A stretch of DNA of 64,000 nt, from IMG/VR virus record IMGVR_UViG_3300042691_027609; one strand, 5' to 3'. This document shows, in pieces, positions 6,945 through 14,251 of the stretch; within the stretch, counting starts at the first letter, position 1; each line of letters starts with the position of its first letter. This DNA is from a virus. A model generated the notes under the pieces. It saw only the letters and a list, made by a program, of their open reading frames with translations. It did not search any database and was not told the DNA's origin. Made by a program: the position numbers and the translations under genes.

Positions 6945-7355
6945 ATGAGAGATCTATTACGATCTTTCGAGCTTGATCCGTTTGACTTGCTCTGGAAAGA
7001 TTTATTTGTATCAAATTCAAACTTCGCGAATATCTCGCATCGCATCACCCATCCTGTAGACATTTACGAAAACGAAGACGGCATCGCATTTGAAATTGCA
7101 GCTGTCGGTCTTGACAAAAAAGACATTGAAATTTTTGTTGAAGGCGAACAACTTCGTATCAAGTACGAAAAGCCTGAGACAGAAGAACGTCCCGCTATTT
7201 ATAAGGGCATCAAAAGATCGTCCTTCGATATCACATGGAAAATCTCAACCAAATTCGATCTAAACAAGTTAGAGGCCAACTTGGATAAAGGATTGTTGAA
7301 GCTCAACATTCCCATTGCGGCAGGCAAAGCCATTCGCAAGATCGAACTCAAATAA
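6945..7355 (+). CDS. Small heat-shock protein (Hsp20/alpha-crystallin)
   Basis: PVDIYE, GLDKKDIEI, ANLDKGLLKLNIP and terminal IxL motif. Confidence 0.92.
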   Translation: MRDLLRSFELDPFDLLWKDLFVSNSNFANISHRITHPVDIYENEDGIAFEIAAVGLDKKDIEIFVEGEQLRIKYEKPETEERPAIYKGIKRSSFDITWKISTKFDLNKLEANLDKGLLKLNIPIAAGKAIRKIELK

Positions 7356-7381
7356 TTAAAAAGGCCTATCGATACCAAGTT

Positions 7382-7570
7382 ATGACAATCTGTAAAGAGG
7401 TTTTGAACATCAACGGAACTCTGTTCCTCGTAAAAAAAGTACTGAGAGAAGAATACTGCAAAGACGTAGAACTGCTAAAACAGTGGTACTTGGCAGATAT
7501 AGTTTTTAGAAAAGAAACTCTTTTGTATTTTTGTGAACAGATCGTTGATCTAGATTACGAAACAATTTAA
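7382..7570 (+). CDS. Hypothetical protein
   Basis: 62-aa ORF with AAGTTATG start, inside the chaperone cluster. Confidence 0.6.
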   Translation: MTICKEVLNINGTLFLVKKVLREEYCKDVELLKQWYLADIVFRKETLLYFCEQIVDLDYETI

Positions 7571-7584
7571 AAAATAAAAACAAC

Positions 7585-7875
7585 ATGAGCAAACTACAAC
7601 CGATGAACGGAAATGTTATCTTGAAGCCGATCGAATCGCAAGAAGAGACATTTGGTAACATCATCATCCCCGACCTTGGCAAAGAGCGTCCTGAAATGGC
7701 GCAAGTCGTCGCGACCAGTAAAACATACAACTGGCACAACGGCGATCACGTATCGAGCAACCTCGAACCAGGAGAAACAGTACTAATTCCTAAAATGGGC
7801 GCAGTAAGAGTAACCATCGATGGAGAAGACTATTTCATTTGTAAAGAAACAGAAATTTTATCAAAACTTGCATAA
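7585..7875 (+). CDS. groES: Co-chaperonin GroES
   Basis: LQPMNGNVILK, GNIIIPD mobile loop, DGEDY...ETEIL; adjacent to GroEL. Confidence 0.92.
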   Translation: MSKLQPMNGNVILKPIESQEETFGNIIIPDLGKERPEMAQVVATSKTYNWHNGDHVSSNLEPGETVLIPKMGAVRVTIDGEDYFICKETEILSKLA

Positions 7876-7885
7876 AAAGCACAAT

Positions 7886-9511
7886 ATGTCAACAACACAA
7901 AATTTATTCGGTAAAGAATTAAAAGAAAAATTGCAAGCCGGCATTCAAAAATTGAACAGCGCGGTTTCATCTACACTCGGTCCCGGTGGCCGTACAGTCT
8001 TGATTAAAGAACAATCAGGCGAAGTAAAAGTTACAAAAGACGGAGTCTCTGTAGCAAAAGCATTTCATAAGCTAGAAGACGACGTAGAAGATTTAGGAGC
8101 ACAGCTCGTTAAACAAGTAAGTATTAAATCAGCAAACGAAGCCGGTGACGGAACCACGACATCTACAATCTTGGCAACCAAAATGGTTGAAGAAGGTTTA
8201 ACCCTAATTCACCAAGGAGTTAACGCAGTAGCGGTTAAAAAACAAATCGATTCAGCCGTTGATAAAGCCGTAAAGAAAATCAAAGAAATGGCAATTGACG
8301 TATCAACAGAAGATCAGATTCGCCAAGTAGCCACAATCTCAGGCAACAACGATTCAGAAATCGGAGAACTTATCGCTACAGCTATCGATAAAGTAGGTCG
8401 TGAAGGAGTTGTTACTATCGAAGAATCTAAAACTGGAGAAACACAATTAGAAGTCGTAGAAGGTATGCAGTTCGAACGCGGATACAAATCTCCTTACTTT
8501 GTTACCAACAACACAACCATGCAAGCAGTACTTGAGGATCCTTACATTTTGATGTATGATGGTCGTATCTCAACTGCACAAGAGTTGTTGCAAGCTCTGA
8601 CAAAAGCAAACGCAGAAAATAAACCGCTTTTGATTGTAGCAGAAGATATTGGTGATGAAGCATTAGCAACTTTGATCGTAAATAAAATGCGAGGCATTGT
8701 TCAAGTATGTGCTGTTAAAGCTCCTGAGTTTGGAGAAAGAAAAACTTTGATTCTTGAAGATATGGCCATTTTGACAGGCGGTGAAGTACTATCAAAAGAC
8801 AAAGGACACAAGCTCGATAAAATTGCTCCTGCGCAATACGGCGAGTTCCTAGGTAGAGCAAGAATGGTTACGATTAGTAAGGATCAAACAACCATCATTG
8901 ATGGCAAGGGAGAAGAATCAGCAATCGAATTGAGAGCTGCAGAAATCAAAGATCAGATCGAGAAAGCCACTTCTTTCTACGAGAAAGAGAAATTACAAGA
9001 GCGTCTTGGTAAATTGATCGGAGGTGTTGCTATCATCTCTGTAGGTGGTAATTCAGATATCGAAATCAAAGAAAAAGCCGATCGTGTTGAAGACGCACTT
9101 TTCGCTACGAAAGCAGCGCTTGCAGAAGGTATCGTTCCTGGCGGAGGAATCGTACTTTACGATGTACTCGATTGCTCAGAAGATAACAACGATAAAGGAT
9201 TACAAATCGTTAGTATGGCATGCGCAGCGCCTTTCATGAAGATTCTTGAGAACGCAGGAAACGATAAGTGGTACGCAGTTGCTCACGAGATTCACACTTC
9301 TAAATTGAAAAATGCTACCTACGATGCCAAGAATGGCAAAGTGGTTGACGCATTCGAAGCGGGCATCATTGATCCAGCAAAAGTAGTTATCACAGCTCTT
9401 AAAAACGCAGCTTCTGTTGCAGGAACTATTCTAACCACAGAATCAGTCGTGTTTGAGAAATCAGACAAGAAAGCTGATGATGGAGGAATGGGCGGTATGA
9501 TGGGCATGTAA
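7886..9511 (+). CDS. groEL: Chaperonin GroEL
   Basis: [30 protein letters not shown] and GGM tail; likely start MSTTQ at 7886. Confidence 0.97.
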
Positions 9512-10088: not shown

Positions 10089-10113
10089 TTAAATAAAAAA
10101 TATAAAACAAGTG

Positions 10114-10138
10114 AAAGCACCTTTTCGGTGCTTTTTTT
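10114..10138 (+). terminator. Intrinsic terminator
   Basis: AAAGCACC/GGTGCTTT hairpin followed by a T run. Confidence 0.8.
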
Positions 10139-10205: not shown

Positions 10206-11147
10206 ATGAATAAATTTGCATTAGTTTCTATTATGGGGAACGTAGGAACAACATTCAATTCCCAAGGAGGGGGTTATGGATTGATAGCCACCAAAATGAT
10301 GAGAGATCGATATCCCACCGATCAAATCGATGTTAATCCCGATCCTGCAACTTGGCACGACTACGATCACATCTTCGTTTGCGAAGGAGTCAACTTCGTA
10401 GAGGGCAGCTTTAATGTTCCCGGTGGACCACAACAAGTACATCACGACAAGATGAAAGCAATGGGTGGTTATCAAGGCGGAGTAACATTCATCAATCAAA
10501 AGTTCGACTTCGAAACATTCAACAAACGCATCGACATCAAATACGCAGAGTTTCCACAAGGCGAAGTGCTAGATCTATTTCTTGTTGAAGGTATTGTCAA
10601 AGAGAAATGCGTTATAGGAGATTCACACGCATTGAGCGTTTGGCGTCCTGGATTTGGATTAGATTGGACTGCTGGTCGTACTCTACACGGATTCTTGAAG
10701 AGAAACACTCCGGAGCAACTCAACGAAAAGTACGAAGAGACTGTTCTCTATTTTGGAAATATCGATTTGCGATTCCATCTGATGAGACAAGAAGATCCTG
10801 TTGGCGCTACTGTTGATCTGTTTACCAGATATGTAGAGTTCGCAAAGCAACTCAACAACGTAACACTAGTAGAACTACTTCCAGTAGAACATGAAAGTCG
10901 TAAGATTCCAGGTACGGGCTTATACAAGAAGCAACCATTTTTTGGAACCAGAGAAGAGAGAATGAAATTAAGAGAAGTTGCCAATAAGATCATCAACGAA
11001 TCAGGTCTAAAAGTTATTCAGTGGCCACAAGAGTGGATCGATGAAGACGGTACAAAGATGCTCGATATCCTTGAACAGAAACAATCTGTTCACTTGCGAC
11101 CAAAAAATTATCCATACATAAACGAAATTACGAATGTTTCTAAATAA
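10206..11147 (+). CDS. Two-domain protein: N-terminal domain reminiscent of T4 beta-glucosyltransferase N-domain plus C-terminal SGNH/GDSL-like domain
   Basis: SGNH-like blocks VIGDSH, FGNIDLR, QSVHL; the N-terminal resemblance was judged by eye. Confidence 0.55.
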   Translation: MNKFALVSIMGNVGTTFNSQGGGYGLIATKMMRDRYPTDQIDVNPDPATWHDYDHIFVCEGVNFVEGSFNVPGGPQQVHHDKMKAMGGYQGGVTFINQKFDFETFNKRIDIKYAEFPQGEVLDLFLVEGIVKEKCVIGDSHALSVWRPGFGLDWTAGRTLHGFLKRNTPEQLNEKYEETVLYFGNIDLRFHLMRQEDPVGATVDLFTRYVEFAKQLNNVTLVELLPVEHESRKIPGTGLYKKQPFFGTREERMKLREVANKIINESGLKVIQWPQEWIDEDGTKMLDILEQKQSVHLRPKNYPYINEITNVSK

Positions 11148-12018
11148 AGCAACAGACCAATCCAACTTGGATTTGGCAAATGGCAAAGATCTGCAATACT
11201 ATTTGGATCTCACCAAAGATTACAAACACGATTTCACTTTTACCATCAAAGACATCGATGGATTCAAAGTAGTAGATGACGGAGAATTTGAATTTGGAAG
11301 CAAAGCAAAAATGGCAGATTTCTTTATATCGCAAGTGAAAGAAGACGCATTGGTTTATGTAGCACCGAGAACGGGATACGCTCCATTTTCTCTGTGTTAT
11401 TTGGCAAAGAAGTACAACAAGAAATTGTATCTCGTCATGCCCGCCTCAAAAGAGGCATCGCAGCACCAATTGACCGCTATCGAGTACGGAGCGATTCCGT
11501 TATTTGTTAGGATTCCTGCAATGCCTACCGCAAACATTTGGGCAAAACAATTCGCCGAAAAGGTAGGCGCAAAGTATTTGCCTTTCGGTCTCAAACACGA
11601 AATGGTGGTAGCAGGTGGAGTAAGGATATTCTATGATAATTTTAAAGATATGAATATTCCTGAGATATGGACGGTATTTTCTACAGGGGTGCTGTCCCGG
11701 ACGCTACAGATCGCGCTGCCTGACACAACCTTTAATGCTGTAGCAGTAGCAAGAAACATTCAGCCGGGTGAGCTCGGAAGAGCTCGATTTTACAGTCATG
11801 CAAAGAAGTTTACAGATAACAGCGAAATCGTACCGCCTTTTGATTGTATACGCACTTACGACGCGAAAGGTTGGGAATTTATTAAAAAATTCGGTAAACA
11901 AGGAGATTGGTTTTGGAATGTGGCTCGAAATATGCCAACACCGACAATTAAAGCAAAAGACGTAGATTCTCAAAGGGAGTGGGGAGACAAGAAAGATTTT
12001 GACAGATATTCCAAATAA
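11134..12018 (+). CDS. PLP-dependent enzyme, fold type II (cysteine synthase/ACC deaminase-like)
   Basis: GSKAK Schiff-base Lys context, APRTGYAPFSLCYLAKKY, VFSTGVLSRTL phosphate loop, TYDAKGW..FWN C-terminus. Confidence 0.7.
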   Translation: MFLNKATDQSNLDLANGKDLQYYLDLTKDYKHDFTFTIKDIDGFKVVDDGEFEFGSKAKMADFFISQVKEDALVYVAPRTGYAPFSLCYLAKKYNKKLYLVMPASKEASQHQLTAIEYGAIPLFVRIPAMPTANIWAKQFAEKVGAKYLPFGLKHEMVVAGGVRIFYDNFKDMNIPEIWTVFSTGVLSRTLQIALPDTTFNAVAVARNIQPGELGRARFYSHAKKFTDNSEIVPPFDCIRTYDAKGWEFIKKFGKQGDWFWNVARNMPTPTIKAKDVDSQREWGDKKDFDRYSK

Positions 12019-12035
12019 AAGATTTATATTACATC

Positions 12036-12347
12036 ATGAAAAGTATATTACAACAAGCACACGACATCGTATTCGAAAGAAACGAAGAAAAAGAACGCAT
12101 GTATGGACCATTTGAAGAAGGCATGGAACAAGCAGCAAGAATCGCATCTGAGCTCTCCAGAAAAGAGATTACAGCTTTCGATATGTACAATTGCATGATT
12201 GCGCTAAAGCTATCCAGAGCTTCATGGAATTATAAAGAAGACAATTATCTTGATGCTGTAGCATACATGGCATCTCTAAACCAATACCAAAAAACAAAAC
12301 AACAAGATGTTAATCAAGAAAGTAAAGGACGTAAAAACACCAAGTAG
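12036..12347 (+). CDS. DUF6378-like small helical protein, possible dNTP pyrophosphohydrolase
   Basis: IL..A..IV...R...YG...MIALKLSR.....DNYLDAVAY pattern. Confidence 0.7.
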   Translation: MKSILQQAHDIVFERNEEKERMYGPFEEGMEQAARIASELSRKEITAFDMYNCMIALKLSRASWNYKEDNYLDAVAYMASLNQYQKTKQQDVNQESKGRKNTK

Positions 12348-12738
12348 AGGCACTAGCAAAAGTGCTGGCATAGATTTTTTCACTCCAAATGATATGGAGA
12401 GAATTTCATTAGCTCCCAATGAATCAGCTCTAATTCCATCAGGCATCAAAGCACAAGTACCTCAAGGCCACGCATTTATTGCATTCAACAAATCAGGAGT
12501 AGCTACGAAAAAGGGATTAGTAGTTGGAGCTTGCGTAGTAGACGAAGATTACGAGGGCGAAATTCATATCCACGTTATAAATACATCAAGAGGATTTGTA
12601 GAAATTTTACCCGGCGAAAAACTTACACAATTTATTTTAATACCAGTAAATTATCAAAATGTCCAACAAGTTGAATCATTCCCTGAGCGACACTCTGAAA
12701 GAGGAGCTGGCGGATTTGGAAGCACAGGCATTAGCTAA
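12307..12738 (+). CDS. dut: Trimeric dUTPase
   Basis: SAGIDF, NKSG, VVDEDYEGEI, Q and RGAGGFGSTG motifs. Confidence 0.95.
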   Translation: MLIKKVKDVKTPSRGTSKSAGIDFFTPNDMERISLAPNESALIPSGIKAQVPQGHAFIAFNKSGVATKKGLVVGACVVDEDYEGEIHIHVINTSRGFVEILPGEKLTQFILIPVNYQNVQQVESFPERHSERGAGGFGSTGIS

Positions 12739-13144
12739 AAGAAAAAAACTAGATACAGTTTTTATAAACATCGCTAAAGAAGTGTCTAAACTTTCTCACT
12801 GCAAAAGATCTCAAGTGGGAGCTGTGATAGAATTATCGGGAAATATAGTATCATTTGGTTTTAATGGTACTCCCAAAGGTATGGATAATTGTTGCGAAGA
12901 CCACAATAATACAACTTTTCCATATGTAATCCATGCCGAATCAAACGCGATAATAAAAGCGGCAAAATCAGGCACTTCAATGAAAGGTGGTACATTGTAT
13001 TTAACTCTTTCACCGTGCTTAGATTGCTGTAAACTTATTTTGCAATCGGAAATAAATAGGGTTGTATATTTAGAAGACTACAGAGATGATACTGGAGTTA
13101 AATTTTTAAAAAAATTTATAAAAGTTCAAAAATATGAATACTAG
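12659..13144 (+). CDS. dCMP deaminase (start uncertain, overlaps dut)
   Basis: SHCKRSQVGA, GFNGTP, HAESNAI, SPCLDC zinc-deaminase motifs. Confidence 0.92.
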   Translation: MSNKLNHSLSDTLKEELADLEAQALAKRKKLDTVFINIAKEVSKLSHCKRSQVGAVIELSGNIVSFGFNGTPKGMDNCCEDHNNTTFPYVIHAESNAIIKAAKSGTSMKGGTLYLTLSPCLDCCKLILQSEINRVVYLEDYRDDTGVKFLKKFIKVQKYEY

Positions 13145-13796
13145 TATACACGGTAAAGAATATGCAAATGCTACTTCTGCGTTTGAGAGTCTTTTCACTA
13201 ACATTCTCCATACTGGAGAAGATTACGCATGTACAAAAGCTGCATTCAACGTTTCTTTTGTTTTGCAAAACCCTATCGATAAAGTAGTAACAACCACACA
13301 AAGAAAGTTCAAACAAGACTATGCGGAATACGAGTGGGAATGGTACATTAAAGGCGATAGAGACGCTAAAGAAATATCTGAAAGAGCCAAGATCTGGAAA
13401 CAAATGATGATACCTGGCACTACTGAAGTCAATAGTAATTACGGGTATTTTTGGAATTACAACAACCAATTATTAAGAGTTATTGATGAGTTAAAAACAA
13501 ATAAACAAACACGTAGAGCTATTCTGGTACACTATTTGCTACATGAATTAGACCGATACAAATATGATACTCCATGTAACGATGTACTTAACTTTTATAT
13601 CAAAGACGATAAATTGAATATGACAGTTTTTGCAAGAAGTATAGATCTTGTATACGGTTTCTGTAATGATCAATACACTTTTGCAAAACTCATGGAATAC
13701 GTTTCAGAAAAGACTGGTTATGAAATAGGTCAAATGCATTGGTTCGTAACTAATTTGCATATATATCAAAGACATTTTGATTTAATGAAAAAATAA
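13134..13796 (+). CDS. Thymidylate-synthase-family enzyme of the dCMP (hydroxy)methylase type
   Basis: Catalytic PC; RSIDLVYGFCND has Asp where dUMP-specific ThyA has Asn (RSxDxxLGxPFN); NLHIY. Confidence 0.8.
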   Translation: MNTSIHGKEYANATSAFESLFTNILHTGEDYACTKAAFNVSFVLQNPIDKVVTTTQRKFKQDYAEYEWEWYIKGDRDAKEISERAKIWKQMMIPGTTEVNSNYGYFWNYNNQLLRVIDELKTNKQTRRAILVHYLLHELDRYKYDTPCNDVLNFYIKDDKLNMTVFARSIDLVYGFCNDQYTFAKLMEYVSEKTGYEIGQMHWFVTNLHIYQRHFDLMKK

Positions 13797-13798
13797 TT

Positions 13799-14251
13799 AT
13801 GGAAGTTAAATTAAATAGAAGTTTTTTGGAAGAGCAGTTGAGCAGACTACCGAAAAACAAATATAACTGCTATCAGTGGTGGCGTCGTTATCAAACTAGA
13901 GATGTACTTCCAAAAAAAGCTCCATTATATAATAAAATAGTTAATGGAGATTACGATCCATCAACATATTTGTATCAATCTAAAATGGAATTATATTTAT
14001 TAGAAGATAAACTACAAGGGGTAAAGTATTCCGATGAAGCTCACGACATTAGAAGCCTATTCATGGAAAGACACCGCAGACTTATCCATGACTACGAAAA
14101 AGAAGAGAAGCAAATAATGCAAAATCTTATCGGTGATTTCTCAAAAACTTTTAAGTTAGATAAAAAACAACTTGAAACTTTTATGGAAACGTATGATGGT
14201 ACGCTACTTGAAATGTATAATCATTTTAAACAACAAACCAAAAAAATATAA
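13799..14251 (+). CDS. Hypothetical protein
   Basis: 150-aa ORF closely following the cluster. Confidence 0.7.
   Translation: MEVKLNRSFLEEQLSRLPKNKYNCYQWWRRYQTRDVLPKKAPLYNKIVNGDYDPSTYLYQSKMELYLLEDKLQGVKYSDEAHDIRSLFMERHRRLIHDYEKEEKQIMQNLIGDFSKTFKLDKKQLETFMETYDGTLLEMYNHFKQQTKKI

What the first reader, a model, noticed from the sequence alone, without database searches (positions are those of the whole stretch)
10206..11147. Apparent fusion of a T4 beta-glucosyltransferase-like N-domain to an SGNH domain
Seen: N-terminal KFALVSIMGNV...WHDYDHIFVCEGVNFVEGSFNVPGG...MKAMGGYQGGVTFI, followed by IGDSH, GNID and SVH blocks. From memory, T4 BGT begins MKIAIINMGNNV...VNDYDRLIVVNSSINFFGG...KFMAKYKSKIYY, matching in order and roughly in spacing. 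Inference: the acceptor-side (hmC-binding) half of a GT-B DNA glucosyltransferase has been joined to an SGNH acyl-enzyme domain in place of the UDP-sugar domain, giving a possible DNA or nucleotide O-acyl/aminoacyl transferase. The alignment is by eye only.
Basis: inference. Interest (0 to 1): 0.75.

Follow-up and report, generated by a model that had tools for sequence, protein, structure and literature searches.

The report
Phage BGT-like/SGNH cytosine-modification enzyme
A phage gene joins the DNA-handling half of T4's DNA glucosyltransferase to an esterase/acyltransferase-type (SGNH) catalytic domain and almost always travels with the enzyme that makes 5-hydroxymethylcytosine, so it probably puts an as yet undescribed chemical group on the phage's cytosines.

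Summary
ORF 10206..11147 (+, 313 aa) has two confidently modelled domains (pLDDT 96). Residues 1-130 are homologous to the N-terminal domain of T4 beta-glucosyltransferase: hhalign 97.5%, E 6.6e-12; best structural hit of 48,161 PDB chains, Z 8.0; controls 0.2-0.5%. Residues 131-306 have an SGNH fold (Z 10-12) with invariant GDSH, GNID and His296.

BGT's sugar-donor domain and catalytic Asp100 are absent. The usual SGNH Asp before the His is replaced, and Glu290 is invariant.

The gene opens a cassette with a homologue of M6 gp52 (a PLP decarboxylase of DNA-attached amino acids), DUF6378, dUTPase, dCMP deaminase and a gp42-type dCMP hydroxymethylase. That linkage recurs in 80 viral loci, in 19 mis-binned MAG contigs and in T4-like Aeromonas phages.

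Relatives are fused to an unknown family "X", which is itself fused to the hydroxymethylase elsewhere, or to a 5-hmdU-DNA-kinase helical domain. Active-site residues are identical across two cassette types.

Best reading: a shared post-replicative group-transfer step, probably O-acylation, on 5hmC in DNA. The donor and product are unknown and the chemistry is untested. No paper in the searched library describes it. First-stage readers of this scan flagged the same architecture in other genomes.

The parts
10113..10135 (+). Intrinsic terminator closing the upstream gene. It marks the 5' boundary of the cassette.
   Evidence: 9-bp stem, 5-nt loop and a T-run.
10206..11147 (+). Target gene: the two-domain BGT-N-like/SGNH protein, 313 aa.
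   Evidence: ORF. AF2 model pLDDT 96.4, pTM 0.92. More than 800 homologues at 90% clustering and 379 representatives at 50%.
10206..10595 (+). N-domain (residues 1-130), homologous to the N-terminal (acceptor/DNA-side) domain of T4 beta-glucosyltransferase.
   Evidence: hhalign 97.5%, E 6.6e-12. VIA Z 8.0, top hit of 48,161 chains. Controls negative.
10413..10427 (+). N70-V-P-G73-G74 loop, the N-x-x-G-G motif shared with the BGT family (I-N70-F-F-G73-G74).
   Evidence: N70 96%, G73 95% and G74 92% in the family. N70, G73 and G74 are invariant in the BGT family. The two are aligned to each other.
10596..11123 (+). SGNH-fold catalytic domain (residues 131-306).
   Evidence: VIA Z 10-12 and Foldseek probability 1.0 against GDSL/SGNH esterases and acyltransferases.
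10617..10628 (+). SGNH block I, G138-D139-S140-H141. Ser140 is the predicted nucleophile.
   Evidence: 96/100/100/100% conserved, located at the end of a strand before a helix.
10755..10766 (+). SGNH block III, G184-N185-I186-D187, followed by the family-specific R189-x-H191-x-x-R194.
   Evidence: 96/93/99/99% conserved; R189 99%, H191 100%, R194 95%.
11073..11093 (+). Block V region, E290...S294-V295-H296. His296 is the predicted general base and Glu290 the possible acid.
   Evidence: E290 and H296 are 100% conserved. The position three residues before the His is Q/R/K, not Asp.
11134..12018 (+). Fold-type II PLP enzyme, a homologue of M6 gp52 (decarboxylase of DNA-attached amino acids). Its start overlaps the target's 3' end by 14 nt.
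   Evidence: PHROG 7093, E 1.3e-23. hhalign against M6 gp52 94.8%, E 5.3e-8, 221 columns. K57 aligns with the CysK Schiff-base Lys. The homologous domain in the Erythrobacter phage passes Pfam PALP at 40.6 bits. Present in 68 of 80 related loci.
12036..12347 (+). DUF6378 protein of unknown role, the most constant neighbour of the target.
   Evidence: PF19905, E 1.2e-13. Present in 74 of 80 related loci and directly upstream of the target in divergent loci.
12307..12738 (+). dUTPase.
   Evidence: PF00692, E 1.2e-22.
12659..13144 (+). dCMP deaminase.
   Evidence: PF00383, E 1.1e-22.
13134..13796 (+). gp42-type dCMP hydroxymethylase (5-hm-dCMP synthase).
   Evidence: Best PDB relative is T4 dCMP hydroxymethylase 1b49, E 1.8e-18. 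It has Cys148, Asp145 (=L143D), Asp171 (=D169 retained) and Asp179 (=N177D), by the diagnostics in PMC13326640. 60 of 60 linked homologues have D/D at the 169 and 177 positions.
13799..14251 (+). orf150, unknown. It follows the hydroxymethylase in close relatives and closes the cassette.
   Evidence: Present in 32 of 80 loci and always directly after the TS homologue. No family assignment.

Best explanation
The protein is a dedicated enzyme of a phage 5-hydroxymethylcytosine (5hmC) hypermodification pathway.

Shown: it has a BGT-type N-domain plus an SGNH-fold C-domain with invariant Ser140 and His296. It is tightly linked to a gp42-type dCMP hydroxymethylase across very different phages.

Inferred: the phage makes 5-hm-dCMP and builds 5hmC into its DNA. 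After replication the N-domain, inherited from the acceptor/DNA side of a GT-B DNA glucosyltransferase, presents the 5-hydroxymethyl group of a cytosine to the SGNH site. That site sits where BGT holds UDP-glucose. Ser140, activated by His296 and possibly Glu290, takes an acyl group from a still unknown anionic donor; the invariant R189, H191, R194, R232 and R252 suggest a phosphate- or carboxylate-bearing molecule. The acyl group then passes to the 5-CH2OH to give a 5-acyloxymethyl-cytosine.

The active-site residues are identical in cassettes with quite different accessory genes (X plus a PLP decarboxylase, or an HMUDK-helical protein plus an inositol-phosphate-synthase-like enzyme). This is therefore most likely the common first step. 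The ester is either the product that the neighbouring gp52-like PLP enzyme tailors, or an activated leaving group, which would make this enzyme the cytosine-pathway counterpart of the 5-hmdU DNA kinase.
For: Architecture: with negative controls.

Catalytic motifs: GDSH, GNID and H296 are invariant or nearly so. They are identical in type A and type B cassettes at 26-38% overall identity.

Link to 5hmC: the adjacent TS homologue carries the N177D, L143D and D169 diagnostics. The same signature is found in 60 of 60 linked homologues, in MAG-bin loci and in Aeromonas phage 31.

Pathway membership: PLP co-occurs in 68, DUF6378 in 74 and TS in 62 of 80 loci. The target is fused to X. X is fused to the hydroxymethylase. 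The target is fused or adjacent to PF18723 HMUDK_hel proteins.

DNA as the substrate: homology to BGT's N-domain. The neighbouring PLP enzyme is homologous to M6 gp52, which acts on DNA (PMC8989533). A homologue of that PLP enzyme is fused to a DNA methylase.

A swappable module: it is absent from the syntenic site of the nearest cultured phage.

SGNH acyltransferases are among the structural matches: PatB, OatA, OafB and 8zbc, Z 7.7-9.6.

Precedent for group transfer to 5hmC in a similar cassette: 5hmC carbamoyltransferase, PMC8670742.
Against: No activity, donor or product is known. SGNH hydrolases match at least as well as the acyltransferases. The canonical triad Asp (DxxH) is absent, and the block II Gly is only 84% conserved and replaced in divergent members.

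BGT's catalytic Asp100 and Glu22 have no conserved counterparts, so only the scaffold of the acceptor site is demonstrably retained.

I could not inspect model coordinates, so the Ser-His geometry and the orientation of the SGNH site toward the N-domain loop are unverified.

The window lacks X and HEL. If acylation only activates the base, the next enzyme is missing from the 64 kb visible. The X-hydroxymethylase fusion could mean nucleotide-level chemistry. The protein's pI (5.9; N-domain 5.0) gives no sign of strong DNA affinity.
Confidence: 0.5

Rival explanations
1. It makes the same O-acyl ester on 5hmC, but purely as an activating step, as a functional analogue of 5-hmdU DNA kinase. X or the HMUDK-helical protein then displaces the carboxylate with the real substituent: an amino acid later decarboxylated by the PLP enzyme, or a cyclitol/sugar made by the MIPS-like enzyme. 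This is a sub-variant of the best explanation and is listed separately because it predicts a different final base.
For: The target is the constant element while the partners vary, and its active site is identical in both cassette types. No P-loop kinase or aGPT-Pplase/AADT was found in any cassette, and there is no Walker A motif in the fusions or HEL proteins. The target-X and target-HEL fusions suggest consecutive steps. In thymidine pathways an activating step precedes amino-acid transfer and PLP decarboxylation.
Against: The window and its closest relatives have the target and PLP but no X or HEL within reach. Acetate-type leaving groups have no precedent in DNA hypermodification. X has no detectable similarity to AADT, to the kinase or to HEL.
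Confidence: 0.2
2. The SGNH domain is a hydrolase, not a transferase. It would remove an acyl or protecting group from a DNA-bound intermediate or from a donor molecule in the 5hmC pathway, as a maturation or editing step.
For: Most SGNH proteins are esterases, and the top structural matches are carbohydrate and sialate esterases and lipases, Z 10-12.
Against: In the window no other enzyme is available to attach anything to 5hmC before a hydrolase would act. A BGT-type acceptor domain fits a transferase better. The strict universality of the gene across cassette types suits a core step rather than a trimming step.
Confidence: 0.12
3. It acts on free nucleotides (5-hm-dCMP or 5-hm-dCTP) before incorporation rather than on DNA.
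For: X is fused to the nucleotide-level hydroxymethylase in some phages and to the target in others. The cassette is otherwise nucleotide metabolism: dUTPase, dCMP deaminase and the TS homologue. The characterised 5hmC carbamoyltransferase also accepts 5hmdCTP. The N-domain is acidic.
Against: The N-domain's only detectable relative is a DNA-acting enzyme's N-domain. The partner PLP enzyme's characterised homologue works on DNA. There are fusions to a domain of DNA kinases. A DNA polymerase would have to accept a bulky 5-acyloxymethyl-dCTP.
Confidence: 0.12
4. It is unrelated to DNA modification. The N-domain would be a generic flavodoxin/Rossmann-like module and the protein an ordinary polysaccharide or lipid esterase used on the host envelope.
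For: Z 8.0 is only borderline for a small alpha/beta domain, and flavodoxins follow at Z about 6. The window carries a large glycan cluster. SGNH esterases are common in phages.
Against: The profile-profile match is specific to BGT, with clean controls. The conserved N-x-x-G-G loop is shared. There is near-obligate linkage to a dCMP hydroxymethylase in unrelated phage backbones. There is no signal peptide and no linkage to lysis or tail genes. The related immuto phage keeps the glycan genes but lacks this cassette.
Confidence: 0.04

Closest known systems
T4 beta-glucosyltransferase (BGT; Pfam PF09198, PDB 1c3j/1qkj/1j39)
   Same: The N-terminal Rossmann-like domain is homologous (hhalign 97.5%; VIA Z 8.0). 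The two share the first strand, the (W/N)-DYD motif and the invariant N-x-x-G-G loop. Both are phage enzymes encoded with a dCMP hydroxymethylase. The probable acceptor, 5hmC in DNA, is the same.
   Different: The whole UDP-glucose-binding C-domain is replaced by an SGNH domain. The catalytic base Asp100 and Glu22 are not conserved. The N-domain is trimmed (about 130 against about 165 residues). The protein does not reach Pfam's threshold. It cannot be a glycosyltransferase.
SGNH/GDSL O-acyltransferases and esterases (for example PatB 7tjb, OatA 6vjp, OafB 6se1, MsAcT-like 8zbc, sialate esterase 7pzg)
   Same: Same fold (Z 9-12). Block I GDS(H), block III GxND and the block V His lie in canonical order and in the expected secondary-structure context. 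A Ser-based acyl-enzyme mechanism is the natural expectation.
   Different: No Asp three residues before the catalytic His; an invariant Glu290 lies six residues before it instead. There is a family-specific invariant Arg/His cluster (R189, H191, R194, R232, R252). It is fused to a DNA-enzyme domain. It has a cytoplasmic phage replication context rather than a cell-envelope one. No SGNH enzyme is known to act on a nucleobase.
Thymidine hypermodification pathways (5-hmdU DNA kinase, amino acid:DNA transferase, PLP decarboxylase M6 gp52 / ViI gp226; PMC8989533)
   Same: Same logic: a hydroxymethylpyrimidine is made by a TS homologue, modified after replication at the 5-CH2OH, and tailored by a homologous fold-type II PLP enzyme (hhalign 94.8% against gp52). 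There are fusions to the HMUDK helical domain.
   Different: The base is cytosine, not uracil (Asp179). No P-loop kinase and no aGPT-Pplase/AADT is present. The BGT-N/SGNH protein, and often family X, stand in their place.
5hmC carbamoyltransferase cassette (MetaGPA, PMC8670742)
   Same: An environmental phage cassette with a dCMP-type TS homologue, a dCMP deaminase, a small nucleotide-handling protein and one enzyme that transfers a group onto the 5hmC hydroxyl.
   Different: The transferase there is a TobZ-like carbamoyltransferase that uses carbamoyl phosphate and ATP. Here it is an unrelated BGT-N/SGNH chimera with unknown donor.

Membership tests
T4 beta-glucosyltransferase family (PF09198, GT-B DNA glucosyltransferase) | N-terminal acceptor-side Rossmann-like domain homologous to BGT residues about 1-165 | tested here: met
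   hhalign 97.5%, E 6.6e-12 over BGT 1-115. VIA Z 8.0, rmsd 3.1 A, 108 aa, top of 48,161 chains. Controls 0.2-0.5%.
T4 beta-glucosyltransferase family (PF09198, GT-B DNA glucosyltransferase) | C-terminal UDP-glucose-binding Rossmann domain (BGT invariant G188, R191, Y261, R269, E272) | tested here: not met
   The profile alignment stops at BGT residue 115. Residues 131-306 are an SGNH fold instead. BGT C-domain invariants are listed.
T4 beta-glucosyltransferase family (PF09198, GT-B DNA glucosyltransferase) | Catalytic base Asp100 (T99-D100 invariant in the BGT family) | tested here: not met
   T99-D100 falls in a gap of the query in the profile alignment. The nearest positions are 97 (D 32%, N 26%, G 16%) and 101 (D 60%).
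T4 beta-glucosyltransferase family (PF09198, GT-B DNA glucosyltransferase) | Scores above Pfam's gathering threshold for PF09198 | tested here: not met
   The window protein gives no PF09198 hit at E<=1. Only 6 of 100 relatives hit weakly, best E 0.0024.
SGNH/GDSL hydrolase superfamily | Three-layer alpha/beta/alpha SGNH fold | tested here: met
   VIA Z 10-12 with 145-162 aligned residues against many SGNH structures; Foldseek probability 1.0.
SGNH/GDSL hydrolase superfamily | Block I GDS with a nucleophilic Ser | tested here: met
   G138-D139-S140-H141 is 96/100/100/100% conserved, at the end of a strand before a helix.
SGNH/GDSL hydrolase superfamily | Block II Gly (oxyanion hole) | tested here: inconclusive
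   G157 is 84% conserved in A1 but is F, K or H in divergent members. T159 is invariant next to it. No residue-level structural alignment was available.
SGNH/GDSL hydrolase superfamily | Block III GxND Asn | tested here: met
   G184-N185-I186-D187 is 96/93/99/99% conserved.
SGNH/GDSL hydrolase superfamily | Block V DxxH (His plus an Asp three residues upstream) | tested here: not met
   H296 is 100% conserved, but position 293 is Q/R/K. E290 (100%) is the only nearby invariant acid. So it is a Ser-His dyad or a non-canonical Ser-His-Glu.
SGNH/GDSL hydrolase superfamily | Catalytic geometry: Ser140 within H-bond distance of His296 | not testable with these tools
   Model coordinates are not exposed. 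Only summary statistics and alignment ranges are returned.
Phage 5-hydroxymethylpyrimidine hypermodification cassettes | Genetic linkage to a TS-family hydroxymethylase of defined base specificity | tested here: met
   D145, D171 and D179 in the window. 60 of 60 linked homologues are D/D at the 169 and 177 positions. The same holds in MAG loci and in Aeromonas phage 31.
Phage 5-hydroxymethylpyrimidine hypermodification cassettes | Presence of a known post-replicative tailoring enzyme | tested here: met
   The downstream PLP enzyme is homologous to M6 gp52: 94.8%, E 5.3e-8, 221 columns. Its function is taken from PMC8989533.
Phage 5-hydroxymethylpyrimidine hypermodification cassettes | P-loop 5-hydroxymethylpyrimidine DNA kinase and aGPT-Pplase/AADT transferase | tested here: not met
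   None appeared in the Pfam or PHROG scans of the cassette or of the partner genes. There is no Walker A motif in the fusions or HEL proteins. X against M6 gp51 and gp54 gives <1%.
Phage 5-hydroxymethylpyrimidine hypermodification cassettes | Modified base actually present in virion DNA | not testable with these tools
   This needs LC-MS of nucleosides from a phage that carries the gene.

The most novel reading that the evidence does not exclude
This would be the first SGNH-family enzyme that modifies a nucleobase in DNA. It is a natural chimera in which a glucosyltransferase's 5hmC-presenting domain feeds an acyl-enzyme active site. The product would be ester-linked 5-acyloxymethylcytosine, either as a new class of DNA hypermodification in its own right or as a kinase-independent way of activating 5hmC for further substitution by amino acids or cyclitols. 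The system is widespread in aquatic phages and in T4-like Aeromonas phages.
Probability: 0.4. Interest if true: 0.88.

Novelty: new variant of a known kind. Interest (0 to 1): 0.75.

Why it matters
Phage DNA hypermodifications shape the arms race with restriction, CRISPR and glycosylase defences, and they supply enzymes used in epigenomics; T4 BGT is the standard 5hmC-labelling reagent. All known group transfers to 5hmC are glycosylations or a carbamoylation.

An SGNH-based transferase that reuses BGT's acceptor domain would add a new chemistry, ester formation on DNA. It would also give a clear example of domain swapping that creates a new DNA-modifying activity, and a possible new 5hmC-specific labelling tool.

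The family is large: more than 800 clusters at 90% identity and 379 at 50%. It is virus-restricted. It also occurs in cultured Aeromonas phages (31, 44RR2.8t, 25, phiAS4), so the prediction can be tested directly by nucleoside mass spectrometry. The analysis also exposes two unknown partner families (X and stand-alone HMUDK_hel proteins) and a cytosine branch of the gp52-type PLP decarboxylases.

Tried and rejected
- Single-sequence Pfam and PDB sequence searches of the target found nothing useful. An HMMER profile of the family against PDB sequences found neither BGT nor SGNH. Only hhalign and fold searches detect the two domains.
- The whole-model fold search was filled by SGNH hits and left the N-domain untested, so that domain was folded and searched alone.
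- X family: no Pfam hit. A PDB profile search gave only a chance hit. There is no match in cultured phages. None of 120 relatives carries a precomputed Pfam domain. hhalign against P0261, P0207, M6 gp51 (AADT), M6 gp54 (kinase) and a 4-member HEL alignment all gave <=1%. The only link between X and PF18723 is the atlas embedding result, and I treat it as an unconfirmed lead.
- An unfiltered HMM search for X and HEL over all six frames of the window found nothing.
- I rejected the idea that the TS homologue is an ordinary thymidylate synthase or a 5-hydroxy-dCMP synthase, using the N177D, L143D and D169 diagnostics.
- pI as a proxy for DNA binding was uninformative.
- phiAS4 neighbour ORFs are not a split form of the Aeromonas C-terminal extension.
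- The ~229-aa gene between the target and PLP in some loci starts with a lipoprotein-like signal sequence and is probably an unrelated insertion.
Full report
WHAT IS THERE. A strong intrinsic terminator at 10113-10135 closes the upstream gene. From 10206 to 14251 seven co-directional, overlapping or abutting genes form a cassette. They are the target, a PLP enzyme (its start overlaps the target's end by 14 nt), a DUF6378 protein, a dUTPase, a dCMP deaminase, a thymidylate-synthase homologue and orf150. The window is part of a large phage genome with DnaB, class II RNR, PolA, Hsp20, GroES/GroEL and a 20-kb glycan cluster. Its nearest cultured relatives are the 160-kb Flavobacterium "immuto" myoviruses, at 54% identity in PolA.

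THE TWO DOMAINS. The target has no Pfam family, and its two PHROG matches cover only the C-terminal half and are of unknown function. It belongs to a large family of about 310-aa proteins: 804 hits among 90% clusters and 379 representatives at 50%. An AlphaFold2 model built on 100 diverse relatives is very confident (pLDDT 96.4, pTM 0.92).

Residues 131-306 are an SGNH-hydrolase fold. VIA gives Z 10-12 over 145-162 residues against many GDSL/SGNH esterases and acyltransferases, and Foldseek gives probability 1.0.

Residues 1-130 were folded alone (pLDDT 93.3). Their best match among 48,161 representative PDB chains is T4 beta-glucosyltransferase residues 1-167: Z 8.0, rmsd 3.1 A, 108 residues, with the runner-up a flavodoxin at Z 6.4. 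Foldseek gives BGT entries probability 0.96-1.00.

Z 8 is borderline for a small alpha/beta domain, so I tested the relationship by sequence profiles using the real T4 protein. The family profile against T4 BGT gives 90.4%, E 1.4e-6. Against a 33-member BGT family profile it gives 97.5%, E 6.6e-12, over 101 columns. Controls are clean: a reversed BGT alignment gives 0.2% and the window's two generic GT-B glycosyltransferases give 0.3-0.5%. Six of 100 relatives also hit Pfam PF09198 on their own.

WHAT WAS KEPT AND WHAT WAS LOST. The BGT family's invariant N70, G73 and G74 align with the target family's N70 (96%), G73 (95%) and G74 (92%). BGT's catalytic Asp100 falls in an alignment gap and has no conserved counterpart. 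Glu22 aligns with W/Y24. The entire UDP-glucose domain is replaced.

In the SGNH half, about 40 positions are at least 75% conserved. Block I is G138-D139-S140-H141 (96/100/100/100%), block III is G184-N185-I186-D187 (96/93/99/99%) and the block V His296 is 100% conserved. The canonical Asp three residues before that His is Q/R/K, and Glu290 (100%) is the only candidate acid. Block II Gly157 is only 84% conserved. A family-specific set of invariant basic residues (R189, H191, R194, R232, R252) suggests an anionic substrate or the DNA backbone; that is inference. I could not measure active-site geometry because model coordinates are not exposed.

CONTEXT POINTS TO 5hmC. The TS homologue's best solved relative is T4 dCMP hydroxymethylase (1b49, E 1.8e-18). 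PMC13326640 gives three diagnostic positions in E. coli ThyA numbering: N177D means a cytosine substrate, L143D/E means hydroxymethylation rather than methylation, and D169N marks 5-hydroxy-dCMP synthases. The window enzyme has Asp179, Asp145 and Asp171, which is identical in pattern to T4 gp42. It is therefore a 5-hm-dCMP synthase type.

In 80 related IMG/VR loci the target co-occurs with the PLP gene in 68, DUF6378 in 74 and the TS homologue in 62, even though many contigs are truncated. All 60 scorable TS homologues are D/D at positions 169 and 177, and 58 have Asp at 143.

A scan of one genome for each of 185,579 prokaryote species found only 19 loci. All are in metagenome bins of scattered phyla, and they carry phage genes (UvsX, clamp loader, DnaB) and the same hydroxymethylase signature. 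The family is in effect virus-restricted, and the atlas search agrees.

Distant homologues (about 30% identity) occur in T4-like Aeromonas phages. Aeromonas phage 31 also encodes a gp42-type hydroxymethylase beside a canonical td. The nearest cultured relative of the window's phage has a syntenic backbone but lacks the whole cassette and carries deazaguanine genes instead. The cassette therefore behaves as a swappable DNA-modification module.

PARTNERS. The downstream gene is a fold-type II PLP enzyme. Its family profile hits only cysteine synthases, weakly, with K57 aligned to the Schiff-base lysine. A homologous domain in Erythrobacter phage R6L passes Pfam PALP and is fused to an N6/N4 DNA methylase. 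The family also aligns almost end to end with M6 gp52 (94.8%, E 5.3e-8, 221 columns, with a shared C-terminal PF.C..YD.K.W...FWN motif). M6 gp52 and ViI gp226 are experimentally shown PLP decarboxylases of amino acids already attached to DNA bases (PMC8989533).

Most loci carry a further gene, "X" (300-350 aa, no Pfam or PDB relative). X lies between the target and PLP. It is fused to the C-terminus of the hydroxymethylase in some phages and to the C-terminus of the target in others. These fusions tie all three genes to one pathway.

A second cassette type lacks X and PLP. It has instead a PF18723 HMUDK_hel protein (45 bits), which is stand-alone upstream of the target or fused to it as in the Aeromonas phages and P0261. 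It also has a myo-inositol-1-phosphate-synthase-like enzyme and a C5-cytosine-methylase-like gene. X and HEL are not detectably related by hhalign, although an embedding search places X near PF18723 clusters. Neither has a Walker A motif. The window itself has neither X nor HEL in its 64 kb.

MECHANISM. The target's N-domain motif and all SGNH active-site residues are identical in both cassette types, down to 26-38% overall identity. It therefore most likely performs one and the same step with the same co-substrate, while the accessory enzymes diversify the product.

The best-supported reading follows. After 5hmC is built into DNA, the BGT-derived domain presents the 5-hydroxymethyl group to the SGNH site. 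Ser140 and His296 (with Glu290?) transfer an acyl group onto it. The ester is either tailored further by the gp52-like PLP enzyme or serves as a leaving group. In the second case the enzyme would play the part that the P-loop kinase plays in thymidine pathways, and no such kinase is present here.

What is shown: the architecture, the conserved motifs, the genetic linkage and the fusions. What is inferred: DNA as the substrate, acyl transfer rather than hydrolysis, and the donor. Rivals are a hydrolytic maturation role, action on free 5-hm-dC nucleotides, and, now unlikely, an unrelated envelope esterase.

NOVELTY. The family has no Pfam model, its PHROGs are labelled unknown, and all cultured-phage homologues are annotated hypothetical. 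Full-text searches found no paper that links SGNH/GDSL enzymes with 5hmC or with DNA hypermodification. The kind of system, a hydroxymethylpyrimidine hypermodification cassette, is known. The enzyme architecture and the implied chemistry are not. First-stage readers of this scan had flagged the same architecture and cassette in other genomes; those notes were untested and did not change my reading.

LIMITS. No biochemical data exist. Model coordinates could not be inspected. 

Noticed in passing
window 22768-43802: A ~20-kb low-GC (28-32%) block of glycan genes: several GT1, GT2, GT10, GT11 and GT34-like glycosyltransferases, two GDP-mannose-4,6-dehydratase-type enzymes, an epimerase/reductase and a DegT aminotransferase. 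The first two GT genes are syntenic with the Flavobacterium immuto phage, which lacks the 5hmC cassette, so the block is probably not dependent on 5hmC. Its target (virion, host surface or DNA) is unknown.
   Followed up: partly
window 6945-9511: Phage-encoded Hsp20, GroES and GroEL lie directly upstream of the cassette. GroEL precedes the target in most close relatives.
   Followed up: no
L019:10985-12793 (also L020, L023, L024, L025): A ~600-aa fusion of a gp42-type dCMP hydroxymethylase with the unknown family X. These loci have the target but no PLP gene.
   Followed up: partly
L098:1593-2882 and L057:2386-3561; also ~430-aa ORFs in L094, L099, L101, L102 and L106: A myo-inositol-1-phosphate-synthase-like gene recurs in the HEL-type (type B) cassettes and sits next to the target in L057. 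This hints that a cyclitol- or sugar-phosphate-derived group may be attached in those phages.
   Followed up: partly
L001:4363-5886 (Aeromonas phage 31 ORF234c); L092:829-2388 (phage AS4): A phage-encoded sodium:solute symporter (PF00474, E 7e-53) lies immediately upstream of the target-HEL fusion gene in T4-like Aeromonas phages. It might import the donor or its precursor.
   Followed up: no
L089:3810-6230 (Erythrobacter phage vB_EliS_R6L gp1): An ~810-aa protein fuses an N6/N4 DNA methylase to a PALP-domain homologue of the window's PLP enzyme. A PAPS-reductase-like gene is nearby. This may be another uncharacterised DNA modification system.
   Followed up: partly
L098:5316-6542, L100:7059-8255 and equivalents: A C5-cytosine DNA-methylase-like gene (~400 aa) lies directly downstream of the target in many MAG-bin loci whose phage already encodes a dCMP hydroxymethylase. 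Its role beside 5hmC synthesis is unexplained.
   Followed up: no
L002:5551-6570 (Tenacibaculum phage PTm1 ORF-050): A divergent 339-aa homologue sits between ribonucleotide-reductase genes. Sequence similarity covers only the SGNH half, but its N-domain resembles the target's structurally (BFVD probability 0.84). PTm1 also has a third, weak TS homologue interrupted by a TAA codon.
   Followed up: partly
L010:2883-3572, L026:9983-10666 and about 20 further loci: A ~229-aa predicted lipoprotein (signal peptide followed by Cys) is inserted between the target (or X) and the PLP gene. It is probably a moron unrelated to the pathway.
   Followed up: no
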